A DNA stretch of 64,000 bases from a virus: IMG/VR virus record IMGVR_UViG_3300033145_000767, positions 26,470-90,469 of that record, one strand, 5' to 3'. Under the pieces are notes generated by a model. It was not told the origin of the DNA and searched no databases. It saw nothing but the letters and a program-made list of their open reading frames with translations. Of the stretch, positions 1,108 through 25,093 are shown in pieces (the first letter of the stretch is position 1; each line of letters starts with the position of its first letter). The position numbers and the translations under genes were made by a program.

Positions 1108-1680
1108 ATGATAACTAAAGAATTTTTAGTAGAACAATATATAAATCAAAAGAAGTCCACCAATTTAATAGGTAAAGAGATTGGTTCTTCTAGTGGGGAT
1201 GTATATTATTATCTAAAGAAATATGGTATAAAACTTAGGGATAAAAGCACATTAATGATGGGGAATACCAATTCAAAAGATAGGGTAGTTACAGAAAAGA
1301 CTAGAAAATTATTAAGCAAAATACATAAAGGAAAATCGAAATCAGAAGAGCATAAGAAAAAATGTAGCTTAGCACAGATAAAAAGATTTAAGGATAACCC
1401 TGAACATGGGGAACACCTAAGAAAAATTAGATTAGGTATTAAAATGTCTACAGAACAAAAAGAAAAAATTTCTAAAAGTGTACTTAAAAATAATAAAGTA
1501 AAACATCATATATTTGGAAAAGAATATAATGACCTAATAGATTTAACTAGAAGTAAACACATGAGTTTACACCATAGTGCTTACTTTTACATACTAGACA
1601 AACATGGCAAAGAAGGTATATTAGATTACCTTAATTGGTTTGATACAAAACATGGGCTAGGAGAAAATTATGGCGTGTAG
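1108..1680 (+). CDS. HNH endonuclease with HTH and NUMOD3-like repeats
   Basis: N-terminal HTH-like segment, SEEHKKKCS and STEQKEKIS repeats, VKHHI...LIDLTRSKHMSLH. Confidence 0.65.
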   Translation: MITKEFLVEQYINQKKSTNLIGKEIGSSSGDVYYYLKKYGIKLRDKSTLMMGNTNSKDRVVTEKTRKLLSKIHKGKSKSEEHKKKCSLAQIKRFKDNPEHGEHLRKIRLGIKMSTEQKEKISKSVLKNNKVKHHIFGKEYNDLIDLTRSKHMSLHHSAYFYILDKHGKEGILDYLNWFDTKHGLGENYGV

Positions 1681-3022
1681 TAAAGGATATACTTCCCCAA
1701 GAATTTCATCGGAGTATAAGGATTGCGGACTTATTTTGACTTTTGACCAATACAATATATGTGGTTTTGGTTTTGGGAAACAATGTGCAGGATGTTTGTA
1801 TTGTTTTAGTAATTCCCAGAAAATAAACCACCCAATGTACCAAGAAAAAGCATTTCAAGTAAGGTCAGTAAACCCTGATAAAGTAGTTGACATGCTTACA
1901 GGAAAAAGTAAGTCTAAATATTATGATAATTTCTTTAAATATAGATTCCCCTTTCATTGGGGGGGTTTAGCAGACCCATTCTGTTACATGGAGGAGAAAG
2001 AAAGAGTTGGTTTAAAAATATTACAAGGTGCAAGTAAAGTACAGTATCCTATAATATTCTCTACAAAAGGCACTTTTATGTGCTATGATAAAGAGTATCT
2101 TAAAGTATTTGAAAGTTATAAGAAAAGTAAAAACTTAGGGTTTAGCTTTAGTATAATTACTAATGAAGAAAGTCTTGCAAGTAAAATAGAAAAAGAAGTG
2201 CCAACTGTAGAAGAAAGACTTAAAGCAATGAAAATTCTTTCTGACATGGGCTTTTGGACAGTTCTTAGGCTAAGACCCTTTATGATTGGTATAACAGATA
2301 TTAACTTAGAAACCCTCTTAGAAAGGGCTAAAAAGGCCGGTGCAAGGGCAGTATCAACAGAGTTTTATTGCCTAGACCTTAGAAGTTTAAGCACCTTAAA
2401 TGAAAGACTTAAAGAAATGAATAAAATAACAGGTCTTGACTATAGAAAATATTATAAAGCTTTATCCCCAAGTAGCAGAGGAACTTACTTGAGATTGAAT
2501 AGGCTGGCAAAAGAGCCCTATATGAAAAGGTTACTAAAGAAATGTAAGGAACTAGATTTAAAGGTTTCTATATCAGACCCAGACTTTAAAGAGTTTAATT
2601 TTTCTGGGTGTTGCTGTGGCTACCCTGAAACTAAAGAAGAATATAATAGTGAAATTTGTAATTGGTCTAAAGGTCAATTAACATATCATTTAACAGAATT
2701 AAGAAAAAAGTATTGGTCTGGTTATAGACCTGCATTATTAACTTGGGACGAGGTTAAAGATACTATAGCTAATGATTGGGCAAGTGATGGGAGATACTTT
2801 AAAGATAGTATAAAATATTGGTCAACAGATTTTAGAAAGAAACAGCAATCACACATAGATGAATTTCTACAGTCATGGAATAGTACTAAGTCAAGTGATA
2901 GCCCATACAGTTATTTTGATGGGTTATTAGTCCCATATAAATTAGACGACAATGGTAATATAGTTTATAAATATGAACCTTCTGATTCTGAGCTTAGATT
3001 GCGTAAGGACGGAATTGTATGA
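1670..3022 (+). CDS. Radical SAM protein, spore-photoproduct-lyase-like family
   Basis: DQYNICGFGFGKQCAGCLYCFS Cys cluster, GGLADPF, FSTKG, SIIT...IEKEVPTVEERLKAMKILSDMG, LRLRPF, GCCCG. Confidence 0.8.
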   Translation: MACSKGYTSPRISSEYKDCGLILTFDQYNICGFGFGKQCAGCLYCFSNSQKINHPMYQEKAFQVRSVNPDKVVDMLTGKSKSKYYDNFFKYRFPFHWGGLADPFCYMEEKERVGLKILQGASKVQYPIIFSTKGTFMCYDKEYLKVFESYKKSKNLGFSFSIITNEESLASKIEKEVPTVEERLKAMKILSDMGFWTVLRLRPFMIGITDINLETLLERAKKAGARAVSTEFYCLDLRSLSTLNERLKEMNKITGLDYRKYYKALSPSSRGTYLRLNRLAKEPYMKRLLKKCKELDLKVSISDPDFKEFNFSGCCCGYPETKEEYNSEICNWSKGQLTYHLTELRKKYWSGYRPALLTWDEVKDTIANDWASDGRYFKDSIKYWSTDFRKKQQSHIDEFLQSWNSTKSSDSPYSYFDGLLVPYKLDDNGNIVYKYEPSDSELRLRKDGIV

Positions 3023-3105
3023 ATAAAAAAGAATATATGAAAGAATATAGATTAAATAACATTTATATGTTATACTTGTTTGCATAGGAGGAAAGAGGAG
3101 ATAAT

Positions 3106-3348
3106 ATGAAAAAGTTTATTACCATGTTACTAATGATACTAATGGTTTGGGTAGTTGTTGATAAACAATGCACACATAGCAGAAATTATTTTGTGTTAGA
3201 AAATAAAATAGGGGTTAGAAAAGTTTTCCATAGCCATGCCTCTAAGGATAATGAGGTTATTATTGGGGATAGAGTAAAAATTAAAATACCCACAAAAAGA
3301 TTAAAATGGTATGAAGATTCATATAAGTACTTAGAGGGGGTAATATGA
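3106..3348 (+). CDS. Hypothetical protein with hydrophobic N-terminus
   Basis: Strong GAGGAG RBS, ORF track. Confidence 0.5.
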   Translation: MKKFITMLLMILMVWVVVDKQCTHSRNYFVLENKIGVRKVFHSHASKDNEVIIGDRVKIKIPTKRLKWYEDSYKYLEGVI

Positions 3349-3899
3349 TAAACGAAAAAGAAGTTAGTAACTTATTACTAGAAAAAGTTGGTACTCATAG
3401 TAGTATCTTTATGTTCAAAGCAAAAGTTATATTCGATAAGAAAATAAAAACTTACTGTTGCTTAGAGTATAATGGGAAAAAAGGGTGTCCTAACTATGGT
3501 AAAAAGAAAGGGTGTCCACCAAACAATAGAGATATAGATGAAGTGCTAGATGTAACAGAAGACATTTATGTATTTGGTATGTCTTTTAACTTAAAGATAC
3601 ACGCAGATGAAATGAAAAAGAAACACCCTAAGTGGACACAAAGGCAATGCTATAATGTAATATATTGGCAACCAAAGCAGAGAAAGAAATTTAAGATGTT
3701 TATAGATAACTTTAAAAAGAAGTACCCTGAATTAAGGGTAGACACCTTGCCAGAGGGGCATGGGGTTGATGTAACTAAAATGTTAAAAGATGCAGGTGTA
3801 GGTATATCCTGGGACTACCCTTTGGACACAGTTTGGACAGTTGCAATAGCAGGTAAGAAGGCTAAATATAAAAGAAAAAAGAGGGTTAAAAATGTATAA
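3345..3899 (+). CDS. DUF2284-like predicted metal-binding protein (copy 1)
   Basis: YCC...GCPNYGKKKGCPP and PEGHGVDVTKML motifs. Confidence 0.7.
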   Translation: MINEKEVSNLLLEKVGTHSSIFMFKAKVIFDKKIKTYCCLEYNGKKGCPNYGKKKGCPPNNRDIDEVLDVTEDIYVFGMSFNLKIHADEMKKKHPKWTQRQCYNVIYWQPKQRKKFKMFIDNFKKKYPELRVDTLPEGHGVDVTKMLKDAGVGISWDYPLDTVWTVAIAGKKAKYKRKKRVKNV

Positions 3900-4686
3900 G
3901 GTATACATTCCTACAAAAGGCAGAGCAAATAACTTATACCTAAATAGGTTAGTAGATGTCATTAAGGTAAAACCTATATTAGTTGTAGAACCTCAAGAGT
4001 TAGAGGAGTATAATAAAGCATACAAGAATAAGGTATACTATGAGGTATTAGCTAAAGATAATATGGGGTATAATTACCTTATAAAAAAATTATATAAAAC
4101 TATAAAGCTATTTAACTTTAATGCTTTTATCATTGATGATGATATATGTAATATATACTTAAAAGAAGTGGGGAAGAAAAGGTTAAATCTAGGTATAGAA
4201 AACATAAATTTTGCACTAAACTATATATCCTGTTATACCCCATATGCCCTAACAGGTAGCGTATTTAAACAACACCAATGGGTGTGTGAAACAGATTTTC
4301 AAGACTTTGGCAGACCTTCAGCTTTTGTATATATAAAAGGCAATGAGATAACGGATGAAGTTTTGTCATATTTCAATAGATATGATATACTTAGTTATAG
4401 GCTTAAAGCAGACATTATGTTTGCCACAGCCTGCTTATATAACGGTTTAAAGATAGGTATGTGTGGTAGATATGGGTTTACTACACCCGATATGGCTAAA
4501 AGTAAAGGGGGTTGTTATGATGATTACCAAACAGACCAGCAATCTTTATGTAGTAAAGAAATACACAATATAGTAGGTAGTAATTTTTCATCAGTAATAC
4601 ATAGAAGGGGTAGAACAGAAGTAAAGATAGCATGGAAAAAGCTATATGATGCAAAAGTAAAAACTAAACAGAACAAACTATTTTAG
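3892..4686 (+). CDS. GT-A glycosyltransferase, TAGT/GREB1-like (phage DNA-modification associated)
   Basis: VYIPTKGRA, LVVEPQELEEY, FIIDDDI (DxD), KADIMF, SKGGC. Confidence 0.7.
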   Translation: MYKVYIPTKGRANNLYLNRLVDVIKVKPILVVEPQELEEYNKAYKNKVYYEVLAKDNMGYNYLIKKLYKTIKLFNFNAFIIDDDICNIYLKEVGKKRLNLGIENINFALNYISCYTPYALTGSVFKQHQWVCETDFQDFGRPSAFVYIKGNEITDEVLSYFNRYDILSYRLKADIMFATACLYNGLKIGMCGRYGFTTPDMAKSKGGCYDDYQTDQQSLCSKEIHNIVGSNFSSVIHRRGRTEVKIAWKKLYDAKVKTKQNKLF

Positions 4687-4695
4687 GAGGGTAAT

Positions 4696-4911: not shown

Positions 4912-4914
4912 ATT

Positions 4915-5133
4915 ATGTTAGGAAAAATATTACGAAAAATAATAGACTTAATAACAATGTTCACAATAAGTATTGCAGGGAGTTTATGTGTTTTAACCAT
5001 GCTTAAGCTAAAGGACTTTACTCTTACAAATATGACTGCTATGATATATCTAGGTGTCTTTATGGGTATGGTGAGCCTTTATGTGCAGGAAGGTATTAGA
5101 GAGGGAGAAAATGAATCCAATAAGGTTCGATAA
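4915..5133 (+). CDS. Small two-TM membrane protein (possibly holin-like)
   Basis: Two hydrophobic segments and a charged C-terminus. Confidence 0.45.
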   Translation: MLGKILRKIIDLITMFTISIAGSLCVLTMLKLKDFTLTNMTAMIYLGVFMGMVSLYVQEGIREGENESNKVR

Positions 5134-5746
5134 AGAAAAATTTAAAGATGGTTTTTTTACACTAAGGAGTAAAGTAGCATGGGCAAAGGATATTGTCTCT
5201 ATACTTAATGTTAGAAAACTTATTATATATGCTATAGTTATAGGGCTATTCATTGGTTATGGTTACTGGAAGGGGGTAAAAGAAAAACCAGTCCATTTAG
5301 ATTTAAAACAAAAAATTACAGTTCATTTAGATAAGAAAAAAATCAATGCTATGGAACAACCAACTATAGTTAAACAGGAGTTTGAAACTACATTTAACTA
5401 TACTGATTATATCAATGGTAAGAAACATGGTGTAGTTAAAGTAGATAAAATAGAAGAACTTAGAAAGAAATATAAACCATACGGCTTTACTAATAAAGTT
5501 ATAGGTGTAATGGGGTTAGGTGTAAGTGCTAATGATGTGTCTGGGGAATCAGGGGTAGGTTACAGGTATGCTAGATTATGGAAGTTTAGAACTGAAATAG
5601 TGGTTACAGATAAGGGATTTTATCCTATTAGCGTGTCTTATAAACCAGATTGGTTCTTTAGTAACACAAGTATAAATGTAGCTGGTGGAAAAGCGTGGGA
5701 AGACGGTTCAAACAGAGCCTTTTTAGGCGTAAATGTGGAGTTTTAA
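5111..5746 (+). CDS. Membrane-anchored protein with C-terminal amphipathic beta-strands
   Basis: Start moved to ATG 5111 after GAGGGAG; TM segment LIIYAIVIGLFIGYGYW; ends FLGVNVEF. Confidence 0.55.
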   Translation: MNPIRFDKEKFKDGFFTLRSKVAWAKDIVSILNVRKLIIYAIVIGLFIGYGYWKGVKEKPVHLDLKQKITVHLDKKKINAMEQPTIVKQEFETTFNYTDYINGKKHGVVKVDKIEELRKKYKPYGFTNKVIGVMGLGVSANDVSGESGVGYRYARLWKFRTEIVVTDKGFYPISVSYKPDWFFSNTSINVAGGKAWEDGSNRAFLGVNVEF

Positions 5747-6740: not shown

Positions 6741-6745
6741 TAAAC

Positions 6746-6774: not shown

Positions 6775-6790
6775 ATATATGGAGGATAAA

Positions 6791-7147
6791 ATGAAAAGAT
6801 TAATGGCGTGTGTGGTTTTGGTTATGGCAGTTATGGTAATATCACTTGGCAGATTAGGAAATAATAGAGAAAGTAATTTTGGGTCGGCAACTGTTGTGCA
6901 TTCTCCTGTAAATCAGGTTAAACCGCTTGATGTTCAAATAATAGAAATACAAGAAGCTATTGATGCTCAAAGTAAAGAATTAAGAGAATTAAAAATTAGA
7001 GTACAAGCTGATTTTATTCGTCAAGGTTATGGCAACAGGACTCTTTATGCGTATATTAAACAGCTAAAACAAGAAAATAGGAATATAAAACAATATTTAG
7101 AGTTAAAAGGTAAAGATGAGTGTAAAGGTGATGGTGATTGCAAATGA
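6791..7147 (+). CDS. Hypothetical secreted or anchored coiled-coil protein
   Basis: Start moved to ATG 6791 after GGAGG; signal-peptide-like MKRLMACVVLVMAVMVISLG. Confidence 0.55.
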   Translation: MKRLMACVVLVMAVMVISLGRLGNNRESNFGSATVVHSPVNQVKPLDVQIIEIQEAIDAQSKELRELKIRVQADFIRQGYGNRTLYAYIKQLKQENRNIKQYLELKGKDECKGDGDCK

Positions 7148-7623
7148 GTAAAGAACTAATAGTAATGGCTGGGAACATAGGTACAGGTAAGACCACTTAT
7201 GTTAAGAATTATCAGAAGGAAGGCTATATAGTTATAGCAAGAGATACCTTAAGATATGCAATAGGTGGGGGAACTTATGTATTTAACCTAGACTATGAAC
7301 CTATTGTACATGCAACAGAAAAATATTTACTTAGAAAATTTCTTGATTTAGGTGTAAACATAGTTATAGATGAAACAAATGTTACAGCAAGAAGTAGGAG
7401 AGTTTTGGATGTAGAGGCAAAACAGGGGGGTTACAAAGTAATATGCATAGTAATGCCTAGGCTATCTAAAAAGGATAGTGTTGATAGGCGTATGCAAAAC
7501 CCCCATGATTGCCCAGATAGAACAGTATGGGAAGGTGTATGGGGAAGATTTAATGACAAGTATGAAGAACCTAAGTACTCAGAAGGCTTTGATGAGATTA
7601 ATTTTATAACTGATTGGGCTTAA
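7144..7623 (+). CDS. P-loop kinase, polynucleotide-kinase / AAA_33-like
   Basis: Walker A GNIGTGKT, ARDTLR, VIDETN. Confidence 0.8.
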   Translation: MSKELIVMAGNIGTGKTTYVKNYQKEGYIVIARDTLRYAIGGGTYVFNLDYEPIVHATEKYLLRKFLDLGVNIVIDETNVTARSRRVLDVEAKQGGYKVICIVMPRLSKKDSVDRRMQNPHDCPDRTVWEGVWGRFNDKYEEPKYSEGFDEINFITDWA

Positions 7624-8233: not shown

Positions 8234-8494
8234 ATGAAAAAAGAATTTAAAATCCCATTTTGGACATTCATGTTCTTTATTATATGCTACTCTAATCAAG
8301 GGTTAGCAGGTTTACCAGAACAATGTTTGTATTATTTAAAGAGGGAATCTTGGGGTTTGTCAGCTACATCTATAGGCCTTATTGGTATAATAACAGGTCT
8401 AGCTTGGTATACAAAGGTCTTGTGGGGCTATCTAAATGATTATACTCCGTTAAGAAAAATAAAAATAAGATTTAGAAAAAAAGGAAAGAAATGA
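8234..8494 (+). CDS. BT1 (folate/biopterin) family MFS transporter, N-terminal part (about TM1-2)
   Basis: YSNQGLAGL...YYLK...WGLSA...LAWYTKVLWGYLNDYTP resembles the BT1 N-terminal motif. Confidence 0.65.
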   Translation: MKKEFKIPFWTFMFFIICYSNQGLAGLPEQCLYYLKRESWGLSATSIGLIGIITGLAWYTKVLWGYLNDYTPLRKIKIRFRKKGKK

Positions 8495-9522
8495 TTATTA
8501 AACTACCTTATAAGTATGAAGTAACTATTGAAATAACAAAAGACAGGTACTTATCTAAGTACTATTTATATATAGCTTATTCATTGATTATAGCTTGTAT
8601 ACTATATATAGTTACATTTGGCTTAAATATTGTAAGCCTTATTGTAACAGGGTTACTAATTAATATTGGAATTGCTTTAGCAGATGTAGCAAATGATAAG
8701 CAGATGTGTTTAATAGAAAGAGAGCATAATTTAAAAGGGAAGGTTCAAGCTATTCAATGGGCATCATTAAGTGTATGTAGCTTAGTTGTATCTTTACTTG
8801 GGGCATACTTAGCTTCCACATTACCAGAACCTTTAAATTATAAACTAGCTTATGGTATTTGTATAATAATACCTATAAGTGCATTAATATATTTGAGAAC
8901 AAAATATTTTGAAGAGCCTGTAAAAGAAGTTAAGAAGTTTACTTTAAGTGTATTTAGATATTTGAAAAATAAAGACTTCTTACTTGGTCTAGCCTTTATA
9001 GTTTTACTTAGGTTTAGCCCATCCTTTGGTACAGGGCTTATGATTAAATGCAGAGAAGAATTATTTATTGGTAAGATGTTCCTAGGTTATGTTGGGGCAT
9101 TGGGTACAGTAGTAGGTATGGTAGGTTATGGCTTATATTATTGGAAAGCACATAAGTTTCCTATTAAAAAAATGTTATATTTTACAATAGTATTTGGGGC
9201 TATAACAAGTCTTTTCTACCTATATCTGCCTAGTAAGTGGTTTTTAGTTGCTTACAGTCTATTATTTGGGGCATTTGAGGGTATATCTTTCTTAGCTGTT
9301 ATGTCCTTCATGGTTAAGATATTACCTACTGGAAGTGAAGCTATGTTTTATGCATTAGTTACATCAGCTAATAACTTATCTAGTAGATTAGGTAGTGCAT
9401 TTGGTGGTATAATATATGATAACTTTGGCTATAATATGAATGTAGTAGTAGCAAGTTTGTGCACTTTTTTATGCATATTCATAATCCCACACTTAAAAAT
9501 AGAGGAGATACCTAATGAGTAA
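8491..9522 (+). CDS. BT1-family MFS transporter, C-terminal part (about 10 TM)
   Basis: IALADVANDKQM...KGKVQAIQW, PTGSEAMFYALVTSANNL, many hydrophobic helices. Confidence 0.75.
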   Translation: MIIKLPYKYEVTIEITKDRYLSKYYLYIAYSLIIACILYIVTFGLNIVSLIVTGLLINIGIALADVANDKQMCLIEREHNLKGKVQAIQWASLSVCSLVVSLLGAYLASTLPEPLNYKLAYGICIIIPISALIYLRTKYFEEPVKEVKKFTLSVFRYLKNKDFLLGLAFIVLLRFSPSFGTGLMIKCREELFIGKMFLGYVGALGTVVGMVGYGLYYWKAHKFPIKKMLYFTIVFGAITSLFYLYLPSKWFLVAYSLLFGAFEGISFLAVMSFMVKILPTGSEAMFYALVTSANNLSSRLGSAFGGIIYDNFGYNMNVVVASLCTFLCIFIIPHLKIEEIPNE

Positions 9523-10264: not shown

Positions 10265-10978
10265 ATGATGATACACATAGAGAGATTTATAGATAATACA
10301 TTTTTAAAGGGGGGCAATAGAGCAAAGTTGCTAGATGATTTTATGAGTACATATAAACATGCCTTTAGGTCATTATGTACCAATGAGGGTAACCTTGAGT
10401 TAGCTAAAGAGGCTAAAGTGTTATTCCCTTCATCCCCAACTAAACTGGCTATTGTTAGAAATTTTCCTTATGGAACATCTAGTAAGCCTGCACCTATAGA
10501 AGATAGGGAAATTGACGAATATGATGTAGTTATACCGCATAAGTTAATAGCAAGAAACAAAGTAGACAAGGTAAAGTTTTTCTTAGACGCCTACTACAGA
10601 ACAGGTAGAACCATTAAGTGGGTAATAGAAGAACCTCTATATGAAGACTATGAAATATCGGAGCTAGTAAATTTTATATACTCTCATTATATGGAGGGAA
10701 GATATAATAATAGAGTTTATATAAAATCAAACTCTGGGTTTGTAGACAGAAAGAGGGCATTTAATACAGTTGTTAAACTATTTCCAAGCCTTGTTAGAAG
10801 GGTTGCACCTAAAGAACACCTTGGGGTAAAGATTTCGGGTTGGGTATCAACACTAAAACAGGCGAGGAGAATTGCACAGCAAGATTGTATTATGGGCTCA
10901 TCTAAAGGTTTAAAAATATTTTATGAACAGCAGAACTTAAAATATGATACTGCAAATAAAAGAATTATAGAGGGGTAG
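10265..10978 (+). CDS. deoC: Divergent deoxyribose-phosphate aldolase-like protein (class I aldolase)
   Basis: IDNTFLK, NFPYGT, EYDVV, IKWVIEE, YIKSNSGF (Schiff-base Lys), GVKISG, MGSS follow the DeoC motif order. Confidence 0.7.
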   Translation: MMIHIERFIDNTFLKGGNRAKLLDDFMSTYKHAFRSLCTNEGNLELAKEAKVLFPSSPTKLAIVRNFPYGTSSKPAPIEDREIDEYDVVIPHKLIARNKVDKVKFFLDAYYRTGRTIKWVIEEPLYEDYEISELVNFIYSHYMEGRYNNRVYIKSNSGFVDRKRAFNTVVKLFPSLVRRVAPKEHLGVKISGWVSTLKQARRIAQQDCIMGSSKGLKIFYEQQNLKYDTANKRIIEG

Positions 10979-11110: not shown

Positions 11111-11356
11111 ATGGGTGTACCTGAAAAGAGGTTAGTTATGGTAAGAAAAAATAGTAAAAAGTATAGAATAGCTAAAAGACTAGGGGAAATATACTTAGCC
11201 TTAAAAGAACTCTCTGGAGAATTGCAGGAATTTGCAGAAGACCATGAACTAGGTAGTATAGGTAATATGCTTTTAGATGATATTAAAAAGATAGAGCAAG
11301 CAGACCACGATTTAATTCGGGTTGCTCACAAATTAATAAAAGAGGGGGGAAACTAG
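11111..11356 (+). CDS. Hypothetical protein
   Basis: ORF track. Confidence 0.45.
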   Translation: MGVPEKRLVMVRKNSKKYRIAKRLGEIYLALKELSGELQEFAEDHELGSIGNMLLDDIKKIEQADHDLIRVAHKLIKEGGN

Positions 11357-11949
11357 TGTTAATTAATAAAATAAACTCTATGAAAAATCTTGATGATTTT
11401 TTATATACTACTTACCTAATTGGTGCTATGGAAGAGAAAGCCGAAGGTGATAGTGGAGAGTCTAAAAGAGAGGTATTTTTTAATGGGTTAGTAAAAAGAA
11501 ATGTATTCCCTATAGACTCAACTAGAACTGAAGTTATGAGAACAGGTTTTACTTCTAAAGAACTTAAAGAAAAAATGGCAGGTTGGACAGCTTCAGGTAA
11601 TAAAGAACTAAGAAAAAAATATGCTAAATGTATCTGGGAAGGAAGAAATATGGTTGATGAAGATTTTAACCTAATATACATTCCAGGCGATTTTCATGCA
11701 GTTAAGATTTCTAATTGGATAACAGCCGTTATAAATGAAGGGGATAGACCTTGTGGTACATTTGGTGAAGCTGGTGTAGCTACAGATATAAAGATACCTA
11801 TTTATATAATAACTGAGCTACCAAAATATAAATTGCCAGGAAGCTTAATACAATGGATGGATATTAATGATGGGGAAGTATTTAAAACTCAAAGAGAGTA
11901 TTTTAACTTTATAGATAAAAAATATGTTTTAAAGGAGAAAAAAAGATGA
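11356..11949 (+). CDS. Nucleoside 2-deoxyribosyltransferase / nucleotide N-hydrolase-like protein
   Basis: TYLIGAME, GDFHAVKISNWITAV, CGTFGEAGVA (GTxxE), IPIYII. Confidence 0.65.
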   Translation: MLINKINSMKNLDDFLYTTYLIGAMEEKAEGDSGESKREVFFNGLVKRNVFPIDSTRTEVMRTGFTSKELKEKMAGWTASGNKELRKKYAKCIWEGRNMVDEDFNLIYIPGDFHAVKISNWITAVINEGDRPCGTFGEAGVATDIKIPIYIITELPKYKLPGSLIQWMDINDGEVFKTQREYFNFIDKKYVLKEKKR

Positions 11950-14085: not shown

Positions 14086-14687
14086 TGAGTAAAATAATAT
14101 TAGGGTATATAGCAGAAGAAGGTGATGCAAAACGAATGGAAGAATTTCAAATATCGCCTGAAACTAATGAATGTCTAAAACCTATTTATAAGAAAAATAA
14201 AATAATAGTAATAGATAAAATAAAAAAACAATTTCTAAAGAAGTATTTTCTTAAATACCCTTGGATGAAGCATTATTTCAATGCTAGAAGAAGGTGCAAA
14301 GATAAAAAGTTCTATAGCTATAAATATTACGGTAAACTTGGCATTAAATGTCTAATTAATAGGGTTGAAATTGAGGAAAGATGGTATAAAGATAAAGCAT
14401 ATAAAATGAAGAAACCGACTTTAAGTCGTAGTAGCCATGATAAAGATTACACTTTTAAAAATGCTAGGTTTATAGAGAATTCTAATAATATAGCGGAAAG
14501 AAATAAAAGAGTATGCTCAAAAAAAATAGAACAATATGACTTAGAAGGTAATTTTATTAAAGAATGGGAAAGCCAATCTCAAATAGAAAGGTGGTTAGGT
14601 TACGACCAAGGTAATATATCAAATGTATGTAGGGGCAAGTATAAACAGTCATATGGTTTTGTTTGGAGGTTTAAAGATGCCAAATAA
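14085..14687 (+). CDS. HNH-like endonuclease with NUMOD1-like domain, degenerate core; copy 3 of 5
   Basis: YPW...ARRRC...YGKLGI; core reads TLSRSSHDKDY instead of SIDRIDNDGDY. Confidence 0.7.
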   Translation: MSKIILGYIAEEGDAKRMEEFQISPETNECLKPIYKKNKIIVIDKIKKQFLKKYFLKYPWMKHYFNARRRCKDKKFYSYKYYGKLGIKCLINRVEIEERWYKDKAYKMKKPTLSRSSHDKDYTFKNARFIENSNNIAERNKRVCSKKIEQYDLEGNFIKEWESQSQIERWLGYDQGNISNVCRGKYKQSYGFVWRFKDAK

Positions 14688-18170: not shown

Positions 18171-18359
18171 ATGGATATTAAAAAAGGTTTAAAAGTTTAC
18201 ACAGATGATTTTTGGTATGATTTAGCCCATGGAGGGTATATACACCCTACAAGTATATGTGTAAAAGAAAGTGATGCTATGAAGGTATTAAACGCTTTAG
18301 CTATAATACAAGATTTTGAAGATTCTTGTGAAGAACAAATAGGGGGGTTTATTCAATGA
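18171..18359 (+). CDS. Hypothetical protein
   Basis: GAGG RBS, ORF track. Confidence 0.5.
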   Translation: MDIKKGLKVYTDDFWYDLAHGGYIHPTSICVKESDAMKVLNALAIIQDFEDSCEEQIGGFIQ

Positions 18360-19066
18360 GTCAAAAGAAACACTATAATATAGGTAGAAAAAACCCAAAT
18401 TGGGGAAGTAAAAGTTTTACCCCAAGTACTATACAAAAATTTAAGAAGTTAAGTTGTAAAGAAAATCATTCACGATGGAAAAAAATACCTAAAAAAATAA
18501 TAGAAGGTTTATATTTAAACCAAAAGCGGTCTATTGCAGAGATAGCTAAAATTCTTAAGTGTAGTACAACTGCTATTTACAATAAGTTACTCTATTATAA
18601 AATTAAGAGAAGAACACAATCAGAGGCTATGAAAGAAAAATTCTTGGGTAGAAAACTATCAAAAGAACATAAAGAAAAAATTAGTAAAAGTAGAATTAAG
18701 AAGAAATCAGCAAGAGGTAAGCATAACCCAATGTTTGGTAAAAAGCATAGCACAAAAACTAGAAGTAAAATGAGTATAATAGCAGGCGGCTCTGGCATAC
18801 CTTATGAAGATAAACAGTATACTTACTATTTTTATAGTATTCGTGATAAAATAAGAAAAGGGGATAAAAATATTTGTCAGTTATGTAAAAAAATTAAACT
18901 AAAGAATGGGAATAATTTAGATGTTCACCATATTGACTACAATAAGAATAATAATAAATTTATTAACTTAATTAGTTTATGTAAAAAGTGCCATCTTAAA
19001 ACAAATAGAAATAGAGAACTTTGGAAGGAAGTGTTTTTACCATGTCGCAACACAATAATTCTTTAG
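18356..19066 (+). CDS. HNH endonuclease with HTH and NUMOD3 repeats
   Basis: SKEHKEKIS, HNPMFGKKHS, CQLC...LDVHHIDYNKNNN...NLISLCKKCH. Confidence 0.85.
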   Translation: MSQKKHYNIGRKNPNWGSKSFTPSTIQKFKKLSCKENHSRWKKIPKKIIEGLYLNQKRSIAEIAKILKCSTTAIYNKLLYYKIKRRTQSEAMKEKFLGRKLSKEHKEKISKSRIKKKSARGKHNPMFGKKHSTKTRSKMSIIAGGSGIPYEDKQYTYYFYSIRDKIRKGDKNICQLCKKIKLKNGNNLDVHHIDYNKNNNKFINLISLCKKCHLKTNRNRELWKEVFLPCRNTIIL

Positions 19067-19765: not shown

Positions 19766-19774
19766 GTTATGTAT

Positions 19775-22076: not shown

Positions 22077-22090
22077 TTTTTTCATACTTT

Positions 22091-22104
22091 ATGGTATACT
22101 TATA
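22091..22104 (+). promoter_or_regulatory. Extended -10 promoter (TGgTATACT)
   Basis: ATGGTATACTTATA is also present at 34780-34793; both are intergenic. Confidence 0.55.
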
Positions 22105-22125
22105 TTGAAGGGTAGGTGTTAATTA

Positions 22126-23085
22126 ATGAAAGATTTACGAAGGTATATTGCTGTAGTTTTGTTACTAACTGTTGTGGGGCTAAACTCTTATGGTATAAAC
22201 AAAAATACTGCACATGCTAATTCAAATGCAAGAGCTACAATTTCATTATCTGGGGGTGTTATTATATTAGCCGATTCTTTTTCTTATTTTATAAAAAATT
22301 ATATTAAAACTAGAGATTCATCTAATAGTGGGATGAAAGAACTAGCCCATAGAGAGCTTGAAAATCATGTAAATATCGCTAGAAATAAAGGAAGTATAAA
22401 AAGCAATAAAATAACAGCCATGATTAATAAAGCTTTTATAATACACAATGAGATTGAAATAGAAAATATAAACAAAAAACCTTCATACAAGTATCTTAAA
22501 TCAGTAACAGTATTTGTAGAGGGGTTACAGCTAGTTTTTAAAACAGAAGACACACCATTTGATGTAAAAAGATGGTCGGGAACAGGTGTAGTAGTTAAGA
22601 TAGATAATAAAAACACCTATATATTAACTAATAAGCATGTAGCTGGTGGTTATAGAGATGGGCATAAAGAAATCTATATTGCAACTGCAAATAGAAAGTA
22701 TACATGTGAAATAGTAAAATTACATAAATCACAGGATTTAGCGTTATTAAAAATAAACGCTGTTTTAAAAGGCAAAGAGGTTGTTAAGGGTTATAATACA
22801 CCTGCTATTACTGAACAGGTATTTACAGTAGGTCATTCTTTAGCCAGACCTTTCATGTATGGTGAAGGTATATTTGCAGGAACAACAATAGAGCATGATG
22901 TTTACCAGTTGCCTACAATCGGAGGTCAATCTGGGAGTGGGGTGTTCAATAAAAATGGTGAATTACTTGGGTTACTATATAGTATATCTGGTACACGAAA
23001 TGGCTTTGGTGTACAATGGGATTTTACTAGGGGTAATGTAGTTAAAAGCGTATATGTTAGAGAATTTTTAGAGGAGAATCTATAA
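22126..23085 (+). CDS. Trypsin-like serine protease with N-terminal signal or TM segment
   Basis: SGTG, LTNKHV, DLALL, GGQSGSG catalytic triad motifs. Confidence 0.9.
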   Translation: MKDLRRYIAVVLLLTVVGLNSYGINKNTAHANSNARATISLSGGVIILADSFSYFIKNYIKTRDSSNSGMKELAHRELENHVNIARNKGSIKSNKITAMINKAFIIHNEIEIENINKKPSYKYLKSVTVFVEGLQLVFKTEDTPFDVKRWSGTGVVVKIDNKNTYILTNKHVAGGYRDGHKEIYIATANRKYTCEIVKLHKSQDLALLKINAVLKGKEVVKGYNTPAITEQVFTVGHSLARPFMYGEGIFAGTTIEHDVYQLPTIGGQSGSGVFNKNGELLGLLYSISGTRNGFGVQWDFTRGNVVKSVYVREFLEENL

Positions 23086-23360
23086 TGAGTGAAATAAATA
23101 AATATAAGAAATGTAAATCAAAGAAGTGTAATAATAAAGTCCATGTTATGCATCCATCAGGGATATGTGCTTTTTGCCCTGTAAAACCATATTGGCAAGA
23201 AGAATTTGAAGATAAAATACAGTTTAGTAATTGGGGTGATTTAGATTTTTTAAGCACTGATTATAACATAGAAAGACTATGTGAAAAATTTATCGGAGAA
23301 GCTAAACAAAAAGTTAAAGTTAAATGTAAAGGTGGAATGATACAGATAGAGAGAATATAA
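23085..23360 (+). CDS. Hypothetical Cys-rich protein
   Basis: GAGGAG RBS, CxxxxC...CxxC. Confidence 0.5.
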   Translation: MSEINKYKKCKSKKCNNKVHVMHPSGICAFCPVKPYWQEEFEDKIQFSNWGDLDFLSTDYNIERLCEKFIGEAKQKVKVKCKGGMIQIERI

Positions 23361-25093
23361 TGGGATTATTTGATGCTATAAAGAAAAAGGAAGCTTTAGC
23401 AAATGGTATACTAAATAACATAGATGAAGTAGATTTTGTTGGGGGTAGAATAACCCTTGATATTGAAACTAATTCTCTTCAAGATAATGCAAAAATACTG
23501 GGGGTTGGTTTAAGAACAAATGACAAAAGTTATTTTGTACCTTTTGAAAGAATAATAGTTGATAAGTTAAGCAAGTTACTTATGAAAGCTGACCCTCTTA
23601 TTCTTCATAATGCTATCTTTGATTTAAACTTATTAAAAATAAATGGGGTAAACTTTACAGAAAATGTATTTTGTACTCAAGTAGCCTCATGGCTAGAAGA
23701 CGAAAATCAATCTCATAAATTAGTAGATTTAACCTTCGTTAAATTTGGGGAAGAGATTACAGAATATAAAGAATTTAGTAACCCTGATTTAATACAATTA
23801 GCTATACATTGTAAAAAGCAAATACCTGCAACAGAAATGTTGTATGATTACTATATGGAAAATCTAGATATACCTATGGATTTGATAAATCTAGAAATGA
23901 AGATTACTCCTATATTGTTACATATGCAGAGGGAAGGGCTATATATAGATGTTGATAAGCTCCTTGACTTAAAAAAAGAATATAAAGTAGAGGTAAAAAA
24001 GCTAGAAAAAGAAGTATTAGCCTTAATGCCTAGTAAAGTAGATATAATGTCCCCAAAGCAACTAAGTAATATGCTCTTTAATATTATGGGGTTTAGACCC
24101 GAGGGGGAGTTAAATAAGGCCGGTTACTATTCAACGGCTAAAGAAGTTCTTAAGAAGTTAGGATTAAAGCATGCAGTAGCAAAGAAGATTTTAGAATTTA
24201 GGGAAAAGATTAAAACTCAAAATACTTATATAGACCCCCTGCTTATTAAAAGATGGGCAGATGGTAAGGTACACACCCATTTTAAGCCTACAGGCACTAG
24301 GGTGGGTAGACTTTCTTCTAAGAACCCTAATGTTCAACAGGTTACAAATAAAGAGCCTAGAATTAGAAAGATATTTAAAGCCCCAAGGGGGTATAAGTTA
24401 TTGATTGCTGATTATAGCCAAATGCATTTAAGGATATTGGCTCACTTTTCACAAGAACCAAAAATGCTTAAAATATTTAATGACCCCAAAGGGGACATTC
24501 ACCAAACTACTGCTGACTTAGTAGGTGTTTCAAGGGATGAAGCAAAGATAGTAAACTTTGGTATACTATATGGATTTTCAGCCGGGAGTTTATCAGAGTT
24601 TTTGAAAGTACCTTATAAAAAAGGTAAGCAAATAATGAAAGAGTATAAAGAAACATATAAGTGTGTGTTTCAGTTTATGGCCCAGGTTATACAGTTCTTT
24701 AAAGCTAATGGTTATGTATATACGCTTCTAGGGAGAAAAAGAAGGTTAATATATGATAGTAGCTTTTCAGAAGGTAAGAAAGGTTATCTAGAAAGGGAAG
24801 CTTTTAACTCAGTAGTTATTGGTAGTGAAGCTGATATAATGAAGACAGGCATGGTTAATGTATATGAATTAACTAAACAATATGGCTTTAGTATGGTTAA
24901 TCAGGTACATGATGAATTAGTGTTACAAATTAAAGAAGAAGATATAACAAAAGAACTGCTATTAAAGGTGCAAGAAGCTTTAGATTATGATTTAGGTTCT
25001 GTTGTAGTTAATAGTGAAATTATAATAGCTGACAACTGGGGAGAGAAAAAGACAGGCGAAAAGTTTGATATAGAAAGCTATGAAGGGATATAA
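23360..25093 (+). CDS. polA: Family A DNA polymerase (3'-5' exo and polymerase domains) with atypical active-site residues
   Basis: LDIET, HNAIFD, GRLSSKNPNVQ, ADYSQMHLR, RDEAKIVNFGILYG, QVHDEL. Confidence 0.95.
   Translation: MGLFDAIKKKEALANGILNNIDEVDFVGGRITLDIETNSLQDNAKILGVGLRTNDKSYFVPFERIIVDKLSKLLMKADPLILHNAIFDLNLLKINGVNFTENVFCTQVASWLEDENQSHKLVDLTFVKFGEEITEYKEFSNPDLIQLAIHCKKQIPATEMLYDYYMENLDIPMDLINLEMKITPILLHMQREGLYIDVDKLLDLKKEYKVEVKKLEKEVLALMPSKVDIMSPKQLSNMLFNIMGFRPEGELNKAGYYSTAKEVLKKLGLKHAVAKKILEFREKIKTQNTYIDPLLIKRWADGKVHTHFKPTGTRVGRLSSKNPNVQQVTNKEPRIRKIFKAPRGYKLLIADYSQMHLRILAHFSQEPKMLKIFNDPKGDIHQTTADLVGVSRDEAKIVNFGILYGFSAGSLSEFLKVPYKKGKQIMKEYKETYKCVFQFMAQVIQFFKANGYVYTLLGRKRRLIYDSSFSEGKKGYLEREAFNSVVIGSEADIMKTGMVNVYELTKQYGFSMVNQVHDELVLQIKEEDITKELLLKVQEALDYDLGSVVVNSEIIIADNWGEKKTGEKFDIESYEGI

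What the first reader, a model, noticed from the sequence alone, without database searches (positions are those of the whole stretch)
1670..25093. Synthesis: candidate undescribed genome-chemistry system
Inference from independent observations in one genome: altered PolA pocket, a nucleotide-removal trio, a radical SAM / DUF2284 / TAGT cluster, a kinase, a phosphoesterase, a folate/pterin-type transporter and a lost C5 methyltransferase. No marker of the known pathways (PurZ, DpdA/QueCDE, dCMP or dUMP hydroxymethylase, TET/JBP) is recognisable in this window, so the chemistry may be new, or the key gene may lie outside the window.
Basis: inference. Interest (0 to 1): 0.7.

Follow-up and report, generated by a model that had tools for sequence, protein, structure and literature searches.

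The report
Phage radical-SAM/glycosyltransferase DNA modification cassette
A three-gene cassette in this uncultured phage, made of a radical SAM enzyme that resembles a DNA-repair enzyme, a small metal-binding protein and a DNA-type sugar transferase, probably decorates the phage's own DNA by a route lacking the usual starter enzymes, while the other genes listed in the finding look unrelated to it.

Summary
The seven observations do not form one system. The real core is window 1670-4686. It holds an SPL-like radical SAM enzyme (rSAM), a DUF2284 protein and a TAGT-family GT-A glycosyltransferase, placed just after the clamp-loader genes of a complete 90,469-bp phage genome.

The rSAM family anchors a variable cassette in 58 IMG/VR loci. 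28 loci carry TAGT, 7 carry an amino-acid:DNA transferase, never both, and others carry P-loop kinases, further rSAMs or ParB-like genes. These are the partners known around phage TET/JBP-type thymine dioxygenases.

The genomes largely lack the known starters. Thymidylate-synthase homologues occur in 3 of 28 records, C5 methyltransferase in 0 of 29, and TET/JBP in 0 of 28 (that search had no positive control).

Best reading (about 0.5): post-replicative pyrimidine, probably thymine, hypermodification in which the rSAM acts at the C5 substituent. The bolder step, that it supplies the glycosyl acceptor without oxygen, is inferred (about 0.3).

The PolA His/Ile variant is real and clade-specific (6 of 120 homologues) but independent. 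A syntenic relative has it without the cassette, and cassette phages keep Glu/Gln. The "lost C5 methyltransferase" was not found. The "trio" is only partly confirmed and not conserved.

The parts
1670..3022 (+). SPL-like (COG1533-type) radical SAM enzyme, 450 aa; the conserved anchor gene of the cassette
   Evidence: Searches give weak rSAM family hits; at least 340 homologues, the 120 listed at 39-100% identity; invariant C31, C42, Y44 and C45 (CxxxCxYC in most members; a 7-residue insert in this clade), plus C315, C316 and the SDPD motif; model pLDDT 91; the best fold match is spore photoproduct lyase 4fhc (Z 18.0, rmsd 3.4, 264 residues aligned, model residues 1-303); distant homology to M6 gp53.
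3106..3348 (+). 80-aa ORF with a hydrophobic N-terminus, between the rSAM and DUF2284 genes; function unknown, may not be a gene
   Evidence: translation. It overlaps the DUF2284 start by 4 nt. jackhmmer found no homologue in the 58 loci.
3345..3899 (+). DUF2284 metal-binding protein, 184 aa; accessory member of the cassette
   Evidence: PF10050, 33 bits; three invariant Cys (C38, C48, C57) and a near-invariant His94; present in 9-10 of 58 loci, always near the rSAM; model pLDDT 79, no confident fold match.
3892..4686 (+). TAGT-family GT-A glycosyltransferase, 264 aa; overlaps the DUF2284 stop by 8 nt
   Evidence: invariant R11, D82-D84 (DDD) and G206-G207, near-invariant D174. This corresponds to the R...DDD...EDY/F motif described for phage DNA GT-A enzymes and JGT. 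In this protein the residue before D174 is Ala, not Glu.
3..245 (+). C-terminal part of F1 (115 aa, starts 102 nt before the window). This small conserved protein lies directly upstream of the rSAM in relatives; it is context, and its function is unknown
   Evidence: in 50 loci, no Cys, no Pfam family.
235..813 (+). HNH endonuclease gene inserted between F1 and the rSAM (context, selfish element)
   Evidence: phrog_3377, 5.6e-19
1108..1680 (+). HNH/homing endonuclease-like gene whose stop overlaps the rSAM start by 11 nt (context)
   Evidence: phrog_8446 and phrog_314, about 1e-5

Best explanation
Window 1670-4686 is a DNA hypermodification cassette. The rest of 1670-25093 is an ordinary, if gene-rich, phage replication and repair region that is not mechanistically tied to it.

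The cassette's anchor is a radical SAM enzyme of the spore-photoproduct-lyase fold. The two members of this fold with known chemistry work through a thymine C5-methyl (thymidyl) radical in DNA: SPL, as I recall it, and M6 gp53, in the mechanism its authors propose.

Shown: this rSAM family is a conserved gene in a large clade of uncultured phages. It sits between the clamp-loader genes and the DNA polymerase. It is followed by alternative, mutually exclusive sets of enzymes that elsewhere tailor 5-hydroxymethyl-pyrimidines in DNA: TAGT-type GT-A glycosyltransferases, or amino-acid:DNA transferase plus P-loop kinase.

Inferred: after replication the rSAM acts on the C5 substituent of a pyrimidine, most likely thymine, because no C5 cytosine methyltransferase is present. 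The TAGT enzyme then transfers a sugar, giving a base-J-like glycosylated base that shields the DNA from host nucleases.

Most speculative step: the rSAM itself makes the acceptor (5-hydroxymethyluracil or an equivalent activated methylene) without oxygen. It would then fill the slot held by TET/JBP-type dioxygenases or thymidylate-synthase-like hydroxymethylases in known systems. DUF2284, with its three-Cys-plus-His metal site, would be an optional redox or cofactor helper.
For: (1) Fold and family. The model has pLDDT 91. SPL is the top match by Foldseek (E 3e-5, TM 0.58-0.60 on the target) and by VIA-align (Z 18.0, next class 15.6). The family is homologous to M6 gp53 (hhalign 95%, E 3.6e-8, 225 columns; family HMM 63.9 bits). 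gp53 is the experimentally shown glycinyl-thymine isomerase acting on DNA (PMC8989533, passages).

(2) Conserved anchor with a variable cassette. There are 58 IMG/VR loci with 48 distinct rSAM sequences. The synteny is F4, clamp loader, f9/f24, F1, rSAM, [variable], PolA, SSB-like, RecA. 44 of 58 loci carry at least one modification-type gene nearby.
- TAGT is in 28 loci. It starts within 100 nt of the rSAM stop in 14 of the 28, and 6 of those overlap it.
- ADDT is in 7 loci, P-loop kinases in 11 (f20) and 3 (f116), rSAM-SPASM in 17, B12-rSAM in 4, and ParB-like in 6, directly upstream of the rSAM.
- Pfam supports these names: ADDT 8e-11, SPASM rSAM, B12-rSAM, FkbM, APS kinase 1.6e-57, ParB_N. 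The f116 HMM hits M6 gp54 (5-hmdU DNA kinase) at 1e-16, and the f31 HMM hits M6 gp51 at 4e-7.
- TAGT and ADDT never co-occur: 0 of 58 loci, and 13 against 7 of 29 whole records with no overlap.

(3) Missing starters. Thymidylat_synt occurs in 3 of 28 records and in 0 of 9 that are at least 90% complete. C5 DNA_methylase is in 0 of 29 and Tet_JBP in 0 of 28. The own complete genome has none of these. G001 is 100% complete and has ADDT (2e-16) and the rSAM but no thymidylate-synthase homologue.

(4) Same neighbours as known starters. Phage thymine dioxygenases co-occur with GTs (31%), ParBs (27%), P-loop kinases and AADTs, and only 6% co-occur with a C5 methyltransferase (PMC13229309, passages). 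A ParB-like gene also precedes a 340-aa subfamily of this rSAM in 47 of 80 cellular, prophage-like loci.

(5) Phage GT-A enzymes with the R...DDD...EDY/F motif transfer sugars to hydroxymethyl bases in DNA and resemble trypanosome JGT (bioRxiv 10.1101/2023.12.21.572611, passages). The motif residues R11, DDD and D174 are present here.
Against: - No chemical evidence exists that any of these DNAs is modified.
- The rSAM sits in the replication module and is kept whatever the cassette holds, so it could serve replication or repair.
- Of the 14 loci with no recognised modification gene near the rSAM, about 10 still have more than 5 kb of downstream sequence.
- Both known SPL-fold activities are a lyase and an isomerase. 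I know of no hydroxylation by this fold.
- The Tet_JBP search had no positive control; the controls were silent.
- Pfam-level absence of a thymidylate-synthase homologue can miss divergent ones. 3 of 28 records do have one, including one ADDT record (G012) and one TAGT record (G025, with an internal stop).
- DUF2284 is in only 9-10 of 58 loci, so it is not required.
- The window TAGT scores only just over its Pfam cut-off and lacks the Glu of the EDY/F motif.
- The oxygen-independence rationale is untested. I obtained no habitat data, and distant cellular homologues occur in genera I recall as aerobic, such as Chryseobacterium, Pedobacter and Mycobacterium.
- The cassette is absent from the syntenic relative G029. 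That fits an accessory module but also shows it is dispensable.
Confidence: 0.5

Rival explanations
1. The cassette does modify DNA, but the rSAM is a late tailoring enzyme like M6 gp53, an isomerase or rearrangement enzyme working on an adduct already attached to the base. The hydroxymethyl or other acceptor would come from an unrecognised phage enzyme or from the host.
For: The family is homologous to gp53. Homologues of gp51 and gp54 lie next to the rSAM in some relatives. The only demonstrated DNA-modifying activity in this fold is an isomerase (PMC8989533). Several cassette families have no known function and could hide a starter enzyme: f30, f34, f50 and f105 and f49.
Against: The rSAM is kept unchanged in position while the adduct-forming enzymes switch between sugar and amino-acid types and never co-occur. 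The own genome has no ADDT, no HMUDK and no gp51/gp54-like gene. No single unknown family is shared by all loci apart from the rSAM and the replication genes.
Confidence: 0.2
2. The rSAM is a DNA-repair or replication-associated enzyme of the replisome module, an SPL-like lyase for UV or other thymine lesions. The stretch between it and the polymerase is simply a hot spot where accessory genes accumulate. On this reading the TAGT enzyme acts independently, possibly on a non-DNA acceptor.
For: SPL is the closest solved structure. The gene sits among clamp, clamp loader, polymerase, SSB and RecA genes. JGI names members 'DNA repair photolyase'. The genome has a separate sugar and teichoic-acid-like cluster at 30756-36357. 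14 of 58 loci show no recognised modification gene.
Against: In 14 of the 28 loci that carry TAGT, its start lies within 100 nt of the rSAM stop or overlaps it. The cassette contents are specifically DNA-base-modifying families: TAGT, ADDT and a gp54-like kinase. ParB-like partners match the pattern seen for DNA base oxidases. This reading leaves TAGT and ADDT without any acceptor source in complete genomes.
Confidence: 0.13
3. One reading: the PolA His/Ile pocket, the dNTP-removal trio, the kinase, the phosphoesterase, the transporter and the cassette together build and replicate one new kind of DNA chemistry.
For: All of these are present in one genome. The PolA variant is conserved down to 46% identity, so it is selected: 6 of 6 clade members against 0 of 114 other homologues. 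The nearest relative's PolA (P0125) and rSAM (P0002) both come from a contig of 90,813 bp, probably the same one. A MazZ-like domain hints at dNTP pool editing.
Against: G029 has the variant PolA, kinase, MFS, 197-aa ORF and small metallophosphoesterase but no cassette, no DeoC-like gene and no MazZ-like gene. Cassette phages have canonical Glu and Gln. The MFS is in 2 of 29 records, the DeoC-like gene in 1 of 29 and MazZ-like in 6 of 29, scattered. The kinase is PNK-like and the small phosphoesterase PdeM-like, that is, end-repair types. No C5-methyltransferase remnant exists.
Confidence: 0.07

Closest known systems
Pseudomonas phage M6 gp53, the radical SAM glycinyl-thymine isomerase of the 5-NedU pathway (PMC8989533)
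   Same: It is SPL-like rSAM of similar length (480 against 450 aa) and acts on DNA. Detectable homology covers the rSAM core (hhalign 95%, 20% identity over 225 columns). In some relatives it lies with gp51-like and gp54-like genes.
   Different: The C-terminal 150 residues do not align. The own genome has no AADT, no 5-hmdU kinase, no thymidylate-synthase-type hydroxymethylase, and none of its ORFs matched M6 gp52, the PLP decarboxylase, in phmmer. Here the rSAM is the conserved anchor, not one optional tailoring step.
Phage 5mYOX (TET/JBP-type) dioxygenase clusters with GT-A glycosyltransferases, ParB activators, AADTs and kinases (PMC13229309; bioRxiv 10.1101/2023.12.21.572611; PMC8256090 seen only as a listing and abstract start)
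   Same: The set of partner genes is the same: TAGT/GT-A, AADT, P-loop kinase and ParB-like. C5 methyltransferases are likewise rare or absent.
   Different: No Tet_JBP domain was found in 29 records (control silent). An SPL-fold rSAM occupies the corresponding place, and oxygen and 2-oxoglutarate would not be needed.
Trypanosome base J (JBP1/2 hydroxylase plus JGT glucosyltransferase)
   Same: The proposed logic matches: oxidation of thymine in DNA, then a GT-A glucosyltransferase. Phage GT-A enzymes resemble JGT structurally.
   Different: Base J is eukaryotic and oxygen-dependent. There is no sequence relation to the rSAM, and the product here is unknown.
Spore photoproduct lyase (PDB 4fhc)
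   Same: It is the best structural match over model residues 1-303 (Z 18.0). The cluster motif is of the CxxxCxYC type with the same Tyr, judged against the CMGHCHYC motif quoted.
   Different: No sequence-level hit was found. The rSAM has an extra conserved C-terminal domain with an invariant CC pair, and its gene context is modification rather than sporulation or repair.
T-even phage hmC glucosylation (dCMP hydroxymethylase plus glucosyltransferases)
   Same: A sugar is placed on a hydroxymethyl pyrimidine as an anti-restriction shield. phrog_842 names a T-even-type enzyme.
   Different: That route makes hm-dCTP before replication with a thymidylate-synthase homologue, which is absent here. 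The statement that the T4 glucosyltransferases are GT-B enzymes is recalled, not tested.

Membership tests
Radical SAM superfamily | Three-Cys [4Fe-4S] motif (CX3CX2C) in a partial TIM barrel | tested here: met
   C31, C42 and C45 are invariant in 34 sequences. Most read CxxxCxYC; the window clade has a 7-residue insert carrying an extra Cys39. All top fold matches are rSAM enzymes. The Pfam score of 26.3 is under the 29.5 cut-off.
Spore photoproduct lyase (SPL proper) | Sequence membership and the H-atom relay Cys140 / Tyr98 | tested here: inconclusive
   The fold match is best of all chains (Z 18.0). No sequence hit to SPL chains was found with the protein or the profile. I could not map Cys140, because no model coordinates or residue alignment were available. 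The Tyr of CxYC is kept, and the next residue is an invariant Phe.
M6 gp53-type glycinyl-thymine isomerase pathway | Co-occurrence with an amino-acid:DNA transferase and a 5-hmdU DNA kinase | tested here: not met
   The own genome has no ADDT and no HMUDK at E<=1. Local HMMs of f31 and f116, and phmmer with the M6 proteins, gave no hit. Homology of the rSAM itself to gp53 is met.
TAGT (PF20691) / phage DNA GT-A | Pfam score over the gathering cut-off | tested here: met
   28.1 bits against a 27.5 cut-off, N-terminal 90 residues only. 22 of 23 family members match, best 5.6e-24.
TAGT (PF20691) / phage DNA GT-A | R...DDD...EDY/F active-site motif | tested here: inconclusive
   R11, D82-D84 and D174 are present. 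In the window protein the Glu before D174 is Ala and the following residue is Ile. The motif is as described.
TAGT (PF20691) / phage DNA GT-A | Association with a TET/JBP dioxygenase or a thymidylate-synthase-like hydroxymethylase | tested here: not met
   Neither is present in the complete genome. The Tet_JBP search had no positive control.
DUF2284 (PF10050) | Pfam score over the cut-off and a conserved Cys metal site | tested here: met
   33 bits against a cut-off of 25, partial match. C38, C48 and C57 are invariant and H94 near-invariant. A second full-length copy lies at 31445-31933 (75 bits).
2-aminoadenine (Z) genome system | PurZ (adenylosuccinate-synthetase homologue) together with MazZ | tested here: not met
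   A MazZ-type domain (PF18909) is present at 2.7e-21. Adenylsucc_synt gave 0 matches at E<=1 in the whole genome, with controls 14 of 14.
7-deazaguanine (DpdA/QueC) DNA modification | TGT-family DpdA and QueC | tested here: not met
   0 matches at E<=1, controls 14 of 14.
Family A DNA polymerase | Motifs A, B and C with the steric-gate Glu and the minor-groove Gln | tested here: not met
   It is a clear member of the family (PF00476, 7e-94) and keeps motifs B and C. However, the Glu is His and the Gln is Ile. The same holds for the 6-member clade only.

The most novel reading that the evidence does not exclude
The SPL-fold radical SAM enzyme is an oxygen-independent thymine C5-methyl hydroxylase or activator. 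It would be a non-homologous replacement for the TET/JBP-type dioxygenases. It would make 5-hydroxymethyluracil, or a thymidyl intermediate trapped directly, in replicated phage DNA, which TAGT then glycosylates to a base-J-like nucleobase. The same enzyme would feed amino-acid transfer in sister phages. ParB-like partners would play the activating role shown for ParB-dependent T-dioxygenases.
Probability: 0.3. Interest if true: 0.85.

Novelty: new variant of a known kind. Interest (0 to 1): 0.6.

Why it matters
The known routes to hydroxymethyl-pyrimidine-based phage DNA hypermodification, as far as I know them, start in one of two ways. One is a thymidylate-synthase-like hydroxymethylase acting on nucleotides. 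The other is an oxygen- and 2-oxoglutarate-dependent TET/JBP dioxygenase acting on DNA.

Here a large clade of uncultured phages carries the downstream tailoring enzymes without either starter. In that place it carries a conserved radical SAM enzyme of the one fold known to handle thymidyl radicals.

If that enzyme is the starter, it would be a new enzymatic way to oxidise or functionalise thymine in DNA without oxygen. That has uses in epigenetic tooling and in understanding how phages of anoxic habitats evade restriction and CRISPR.

Even if it is only a tailoring enzyme, the cassette marks a set of probably new modified bases. The claim can be tested directly with three genes and a mass spectrometer.

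Tried and rejected
- Near-identity DNA search of 1670-25093 against GenBank phages found no match. tblastn of the rSAM against the same collection found no match at 1e-5. The PolA's best hit among cultured phages is 31% identity.
- The search for related loci with the single rSAM protein found nothing. It worked only with the alignment.
- Sequence searches of the rSAM protein and profile against PDB gave only chance-level hits. The TAGT profile against PDB gave only a weak GT2 hit (E 0.033).
- DUF2284 fold. Foldseek's best E-value was 0.19. VIA wide search's best Z was 6.5, inside the range the tool calls uninformative. The top rows were nitroreductase-like, MetH activation domain, epoxyqueuosine reductase and CblC/CblD. 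I draw no function from this. Only two papers mention DUF2284, and neither gives a function.
- Complex prediction of rSAM with DUF2284 gave no verdict (score 0.00). I do not use it either way.
- The look-up of sequencing runs listed no run, so I have no habitat or expression data. The listing of cluster members gave no useful names beyond one sediment-archaeon MAG label.
- Promoter and terminator scans were at chance level.
- A regex search for PolA motifs in relatives failed because of divergence. I replaced it with an HMM alignment in which only 14 of 40 rows aligned at motif A. A search for the window-type PolA in G001, G002, G023, G026 and G027 found nothing (no positive control), so the PolA state of those closest cassette relatives is unknown.
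- The HMUDK Pfam model found 0 of 29 records (controls silent). Yet the family f116 matches M6 gp54 locally, so that Pfam-based absence is unreliable.
- Readings considered and rejected: a Z-genome (no PurZ), 7-deazaguanine (no TGT or QueC), and T4-like hmC (no thymidylate-synthase homologue).
- Literature. No paper holds 'TET-associated glycosyltransferase' together with 'radical SAM'. None holds 'spore photoproduct lyase' + 'phage' + 'DNA modification' + 'glycosyltransferase'. The query 'radical SAM' + 'thymine' + 'hydroxymethyluracil' + 'anaerobic' + 'phage' returns only PMC8989533. The GT preprint has 0 occurrences of 'radical SAM', and PMC13229309 also has 0.
- PMC8989533 does say that metagenomic contigs encode combinations of rSAM enzymes with T-hypermodification genes. 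They may already list contigs of this clade.

Full report
WHAT THE WINDOW IS
The window is bases 26,470-90,469 of a 90,469-bp IMG/VR virus record with 114-bp direct terminal repeats. CheckV rates it 100% complete. G+C is about 31% and no tRNA gene was found. It has no near relative among GenBank phages, and its PolA reaches only 31% identity there. I laid the whole genome in the script box and also annotated the 26 kb that precede the window.

CHECK OF THE SEVEN OBSERVATIONS
The cluster is real.
- 1670-3022 encodes a 450-aa radical SAM protein. Pfam Radical_SAM gives 26.3 bits, under its cut-off. NCBIfam PA0069, Rv2578c and 'mobile pair B' rSAM models score 4e-16 to 2.5e-7, far under their cut-offs. 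phrog_13321 scores 2.4e-15.
- 3345-3899 is DUF2284 (33 bits).
- 3892-4686 is TAGT (28.1 bits against a 27.5 cut-off; phrog_842 1e-15).

PolA (23360-25093) aligns to Taq polymerase. DYSQMHLR stands where Taq has DYSQIELR, and NSVVIGS where Taq has NMPVQGT. The steric-gate Glu is therefore His, and the minor-groove Gln is Ile. Motifs B and C are intact.

Other items:
- The kinase (7138-7623) is a PNK-like P-loop kinase.
- 8491-9522 is an MFS/BT1-type transporter.
- Of the 'trio', 11946-12407 is a dGTP_diPhyd_N (MazZ-type) domain at 2.7e-21. 10265-10978 is DeoC-like at modest scores, with the Schiff-base lysine region aligned.
- 11356-11949 matched nothing in Pfam, PHROGs, NCBIfam or PDB sequences. 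It has only an ESM-Atlas feature lead to viral clusters partly annotated as nucleoside deoxyribosyltransferase-like.
- The metallophosphoesterases I found lie just outside the stated range. One at 25851-26399 is PdeM-like. The other at 26677-27567 is followed by an SbcC/Rad50-like gene.
- A six-frame search for a C5 DNA methyltransferase at E<=1 found nothing anywhere in the genome, so the 'lost methyltransferase' is not confirmed.

The statement that no known pathway marker is present holds for the whole genome. Tet_JBP, ADDT, HMUDK, Thymidylat_synt, Adenylsucc_synt, TGT and QueC all gave 0 matches. The Tet_JBP and HMUDK searches lacked a working positive control.

WHAT THE RADICAL SAM ENZYME IS
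A search of the 5.8-billion-protein collection gave at least 340 homologues. The 120 listed are all full length (about 440-480 aa) at 39-83% identity. Many come from contigs of 60-113 kb, a few carry inteins, and JGI calls several 'DNA repair photolyase'.

An alignment of 34 members shows the invariant cluster cysteines C31, C42 and C45 (CxxxCxYC; this clade has a 7-residue insert). It also shows an invariant CC pair (C315, C316), an SDPD motif and a conserved C-terminal domain of about 150 residues.

The AlphaFold model is confident (pLDDT 91, pTM 0.92). Spore photoproduct lyase is the top match by Foldseek (E 3e-5, TM on target 0.58-0.60). It is also top by VIA-align (Z 18.0, rmsd 3.4 A, 264 residues aligned, model residues 1-303; the next enzyme class scores 15.6).

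The literature search led to Pseudomonas phage M6 gp53. This SPL-like rSAM isomerises N-alpha-glycinyl-thymine in DNA. Its authors described it as the first rSAM enzyme shown to install a DNA modification (PMC8989533, passages read). I fetched M6. The family profile aligns to gp53 with hhalign probability 95% (E 3.6e-8, 225 columns, 20% identity), and a 56-sequence family HMM scores 63.9 bits on gp53. The window enzyme is therefore a distant relative of a known DNA-hypermodification rSAM. The relation covers the core only.

GENOMIC CONTEXT IN RELATIVES
With the alignment as query, 58 IMG/VR loci were fetched (48 distinct rSAM sequences). ORF clustering shows a conserved order: F4 (about 250 aa), clamp loader, f9/f24, F1, rSAM, a variable stretch, PolA, f8, a gp32-like protein, then RecA.

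The variable stretch is where the interest lies.
- TAGT homologues occur in 28 loci at a strict threshold (30 by jackhmmer), sometimes as tandem pairs. They start within 100 nt of the rSAM stop in 14 of the 28, and overlap it in 6. 22 of 23 aligned members hit Pfam TAGT, best 5.6e-24.
- Other loci carry an amino-acid:DNA transferase (Pfam ADDT 8e-11; its HMM hits M6 gp51 at 4e-7).
- Others carry P-loop kinases. The f116 HMM hits M6 gp54, the 5-hmdU DNA kinase, at 1e-16. f20 has a Walker A motif in 7 of 7 members.
- Also present are an rSAM-SPASM protein (17 loci), a B12-binding rSAM (4), an FkbM methyltransferase (3), an APS kinase (1.6e-57; 5 loci), DUF2284 (9-10), and a ParB_N-like protein directly upstream of the rSAM (6 loci).

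In all, 44 of 58 loci have at least one such gene. Of the 14 without, four have little or no recorded sequence after the rSAM. TAGT and ADDT never share a locus (0 of 58). They also never share a record: 13 strong TAGT records and 7 ADDT records among 29, with no overlap.

THE MISSING STARTERS
Over 28-29 whole records that hold the rSAM:
- A thymidylate-synthase-family match occurs in 3 of 28, and in 0 of the 9 that are at least 90% complete.
- C5 DNA methyltransferase occurs in 0 of 29, with working controls.
- Tet_JBP occurs in 0 of 28, with silent controls.

G001 is a 109-kb complete genome with ADDT at 2e-16 and the rSAM, but with neither known source of 5-hydroxymethyluracil. The own complete genome has TAGT and none of the sources.

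COMPARISON WITH KNOWN SYSTEMS
Recent work on phage thymine dioxygenases reports two subclasses. ParB-independent enzymes associate with glycosyltransferases. ParB-dependent ones associate with P-loop kinases, amino-acid:DNA transferases and glutamine amidotransferases. Across its mining, GTs (31%) and ParBs (27%) were the commonest neighbours, and only 6% had a C5 methyltransferase (PMC13229309, passages).

Phage GT-A enzymes with an R...DDD...EDY/F motif put sugars on hydroxymethyl bases and resemble the base-J glucosyltransferase (bioRxiv 10.1101/2023.12.21.572611, passages). The TAGT family here has invariant R11 and DDD and a near-invariant D174. The window protein has Ala in place of the motif's Glu.

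So the rSAM of this clade keeps the same company as the thymine dioxygenases, in genomes without a dioxygenase.

The ParB link extends further. In cellular genomes, a 340-aa subfamily of the rSAM is preceded in 47 of 80 loci by a protein homologous to the viral ParB-like family (E about 1e-45). It is followed by large genes in a prophage-like order. A representative matches Noc, ParB and Spo0J N-terminal domains weakly (E 0.008-0.06). These cellular loci have no TAGT or DUF2284.

MECHANISM
Shown:
- the fold and family of the rSAM;
- the conserved anchor-plus-variable-cassette architecture;
- the identity of the tailoring families;
- their mutual exclusivity;
- the scarcity of known starter enzymes.

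Inferred:
- The cassette modifies the phage's DNA after replication.
- The base is a pyrimidine, and probably thymine, because there is no C5 methyltransferase and because of the gp51-, gp54- and gp53-like relatives.
- TAGT adds a sugar.

Speculative: the rSAM abstracts a hydrogen from the thymine methyl group. The thymidyl radical is the species that, as I recall, SPL handles and that the authors propose for gp53. The oxidised intermediate would then be trapped by water to give 5hmU. The four extra conserved cysteines (C19, C292, C315, C316) might hold a second cluster that takes the electron. I could not test this without model coordinates.

DUF2284 has three invariant Cys and a near-invariant His but no assignable fold. 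Because it is present in only about one locus in six, it can be at most a helper.

The PolA variant is genuine and selected. Among 120 homologues, His occurs in 6, Glu in 113 and Asp in 1. Ile or Val occurs in the same 6, and Gln in 114. The six form one clade reaching down to 46% identity.

One of them lies on G029, a 73,555-bp contig that is 42% complete. I fetched it whole. It is syntenic with this genome from the structural genes to the sigma-like gene. It shares the variant PolA, primase-helicase, RecA, FEN, SbcCD, the PNK-like kinase, the MFS, the 197-aa ORF, the small metallophosphoesterase and a GT2.

G029 has no clamp, clamp loader, F1, rSAM, DUF2284, TAGT, DeoC-like or MazZ-like gene. 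Its sigma-like gene lies 1.7 kb from the homologue of ORF 5081-5746, where this genome has an 8.7-kb block. The contig is incomplete, so relocation of the block into the missing early region cannot be excluded.

Conversely, the polymerases next to the rSAM in other phages have Glu in all 14 rows that could be aligned at motif A (of 40 rows). They have Gln in all 5 rows alignable at the second site.

Across the 29 whole records, the MFS occurs in 2, the DeoC-like gene in 1, and the MazZ-type domain in 6 spread over TAGT, ADDT and neither-type records.

The clamp-loader-rSAM-TAGT block therefore looks like a module joined to a different backbone. The PolA variant belongs to the backbone.

NOVELTY AND VERDICT
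SPL-like rSAM enzymes in thymidine hypermodification are known (M6 gp53). So are TAGT/GT-A DNA glycosyltransferases, and the authors of PMC8989533 noted rSAM genes in metagenomic T-hypermodification clusters.

I did not find the following in the searchable library: a conserved SPL-fold rSAM as the anchor of TAGT or AADT cassettes in genomes without a 5mYOX or thymidylate-synthase-type starter, or its pairing with ParB-like proteins. Supplementary files were not opened and may bear on this.

I file the finding as a new variant of a known kind. The overall synthesis of seven parts is not supported, but its core is a good, directly testable lead.

Noticed in passing
window 23360-25093: PolA with His at the steric-gate Glu position and Ile/Val at the minor-groove Gln position. 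The variant is conserved in a 6-member clade down to 46% identity and absent from 114 other homologues. The nearest cellular relatives (about 33% identity) are Pol I enzymes, several of them labelled Campylobacterota (Sulfurimonas, Sulfurovum), which may hint at the host.
   Followed up: partly
window 30756-36357: A second, full-length DUF2284 (31445-31933, 75 bits) sits inside a sugar or polyol-phosphate cluster. The cluster holds an SDR (FabG-like), a glycerol-3-phosphate-cytidylyltransferase-like gene (8e-20), a 639-aa LicD + GT4 fusion and a GT2. It is teichoic-acid-like chemistry in a phage, and its target is unknown.
   Followed up: partly
genome 8799-15696 (L001; upstream of the window): Three tandem Amidoligase_2 paralogues (440, 342 and 647 aa; only the 342-aa one passes the Pfam cut-off) lie next to a RimK-like ATP-grasp ligase. 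PMC8989533 mentions amidoligase domains in T-hypermodification contigs, but I did not test any link to the cassette.
   Followed up: no
L090-L140 (cellular genome loci): A 340-aa subfamily of the SPL-like rSAM is preceded by a ParB_N-like gene in 47 of 80 loci. It is followed by large genes in a prophage-like order, mostly in MAGs labelled Clostridia, Collinsella and Bacteroidales. A separate subfamily of 405-430 aa in Bacteroidota, Acidobacteriota and Actinomycetota has other conserved neighbours (c8, c60, c61, c31).
   Followed up: partly
L009-L011, L021, L043 (about 13929-14534 in L009): An APS kinase (1.6e-57) lies inside the cassette in the order rSAM, TAGT, f34, rSAM-SPASM, APS kinase, PolA. 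This raises the possibility of a sulfated DNA glycan.
   Followed up: no
window 235-813, 1108-1680, 14073-14687, 18356-19066, 29199-29642; also P0003, P0006, L040, L042, L059: The genome carries many HNH/NUMOD homing-endonuclease genes, two of them wedged between F1 and the rSAM. In relatives the rSAM gene itself carries intein domains or is greatly lengthened (779-1121 aa ORFs).
   Followed up: no
genome 22842-31550 against G029 69951-71502: The block running from the weak metallophosphoesterase-like gene through clamp-like F4, clamp loader, f24, F1, rSAM, DUF2284 and TAGT (8.7 kb) is missing at the syntenic place in relative G029, where one unrelated 361-aa ORF sits. This suggests a mosaic origin for the block.
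   Followed up: partly
genome 6248-6742 (L001): A small 164-aa rSAM/Fer4_12 protein gives only weak hits (HxsC, MoaA, viperin, NrdG-like). The genome has no QueC or TGT, and I saw no NrdD-sized candidate ORF, so its role is unknown.
   Followed up: no
window 8491-9522, 22126-23085, 25441-25851, 30118-30753: The genome carries unusual auxiliary genes for a phage: an MFS/BT1-type transporter (shared with G002 and G029), an MgtC-family protein (2e-25), a ClpP-family protease and a trypsin-like peptidase.
   Followed up: no
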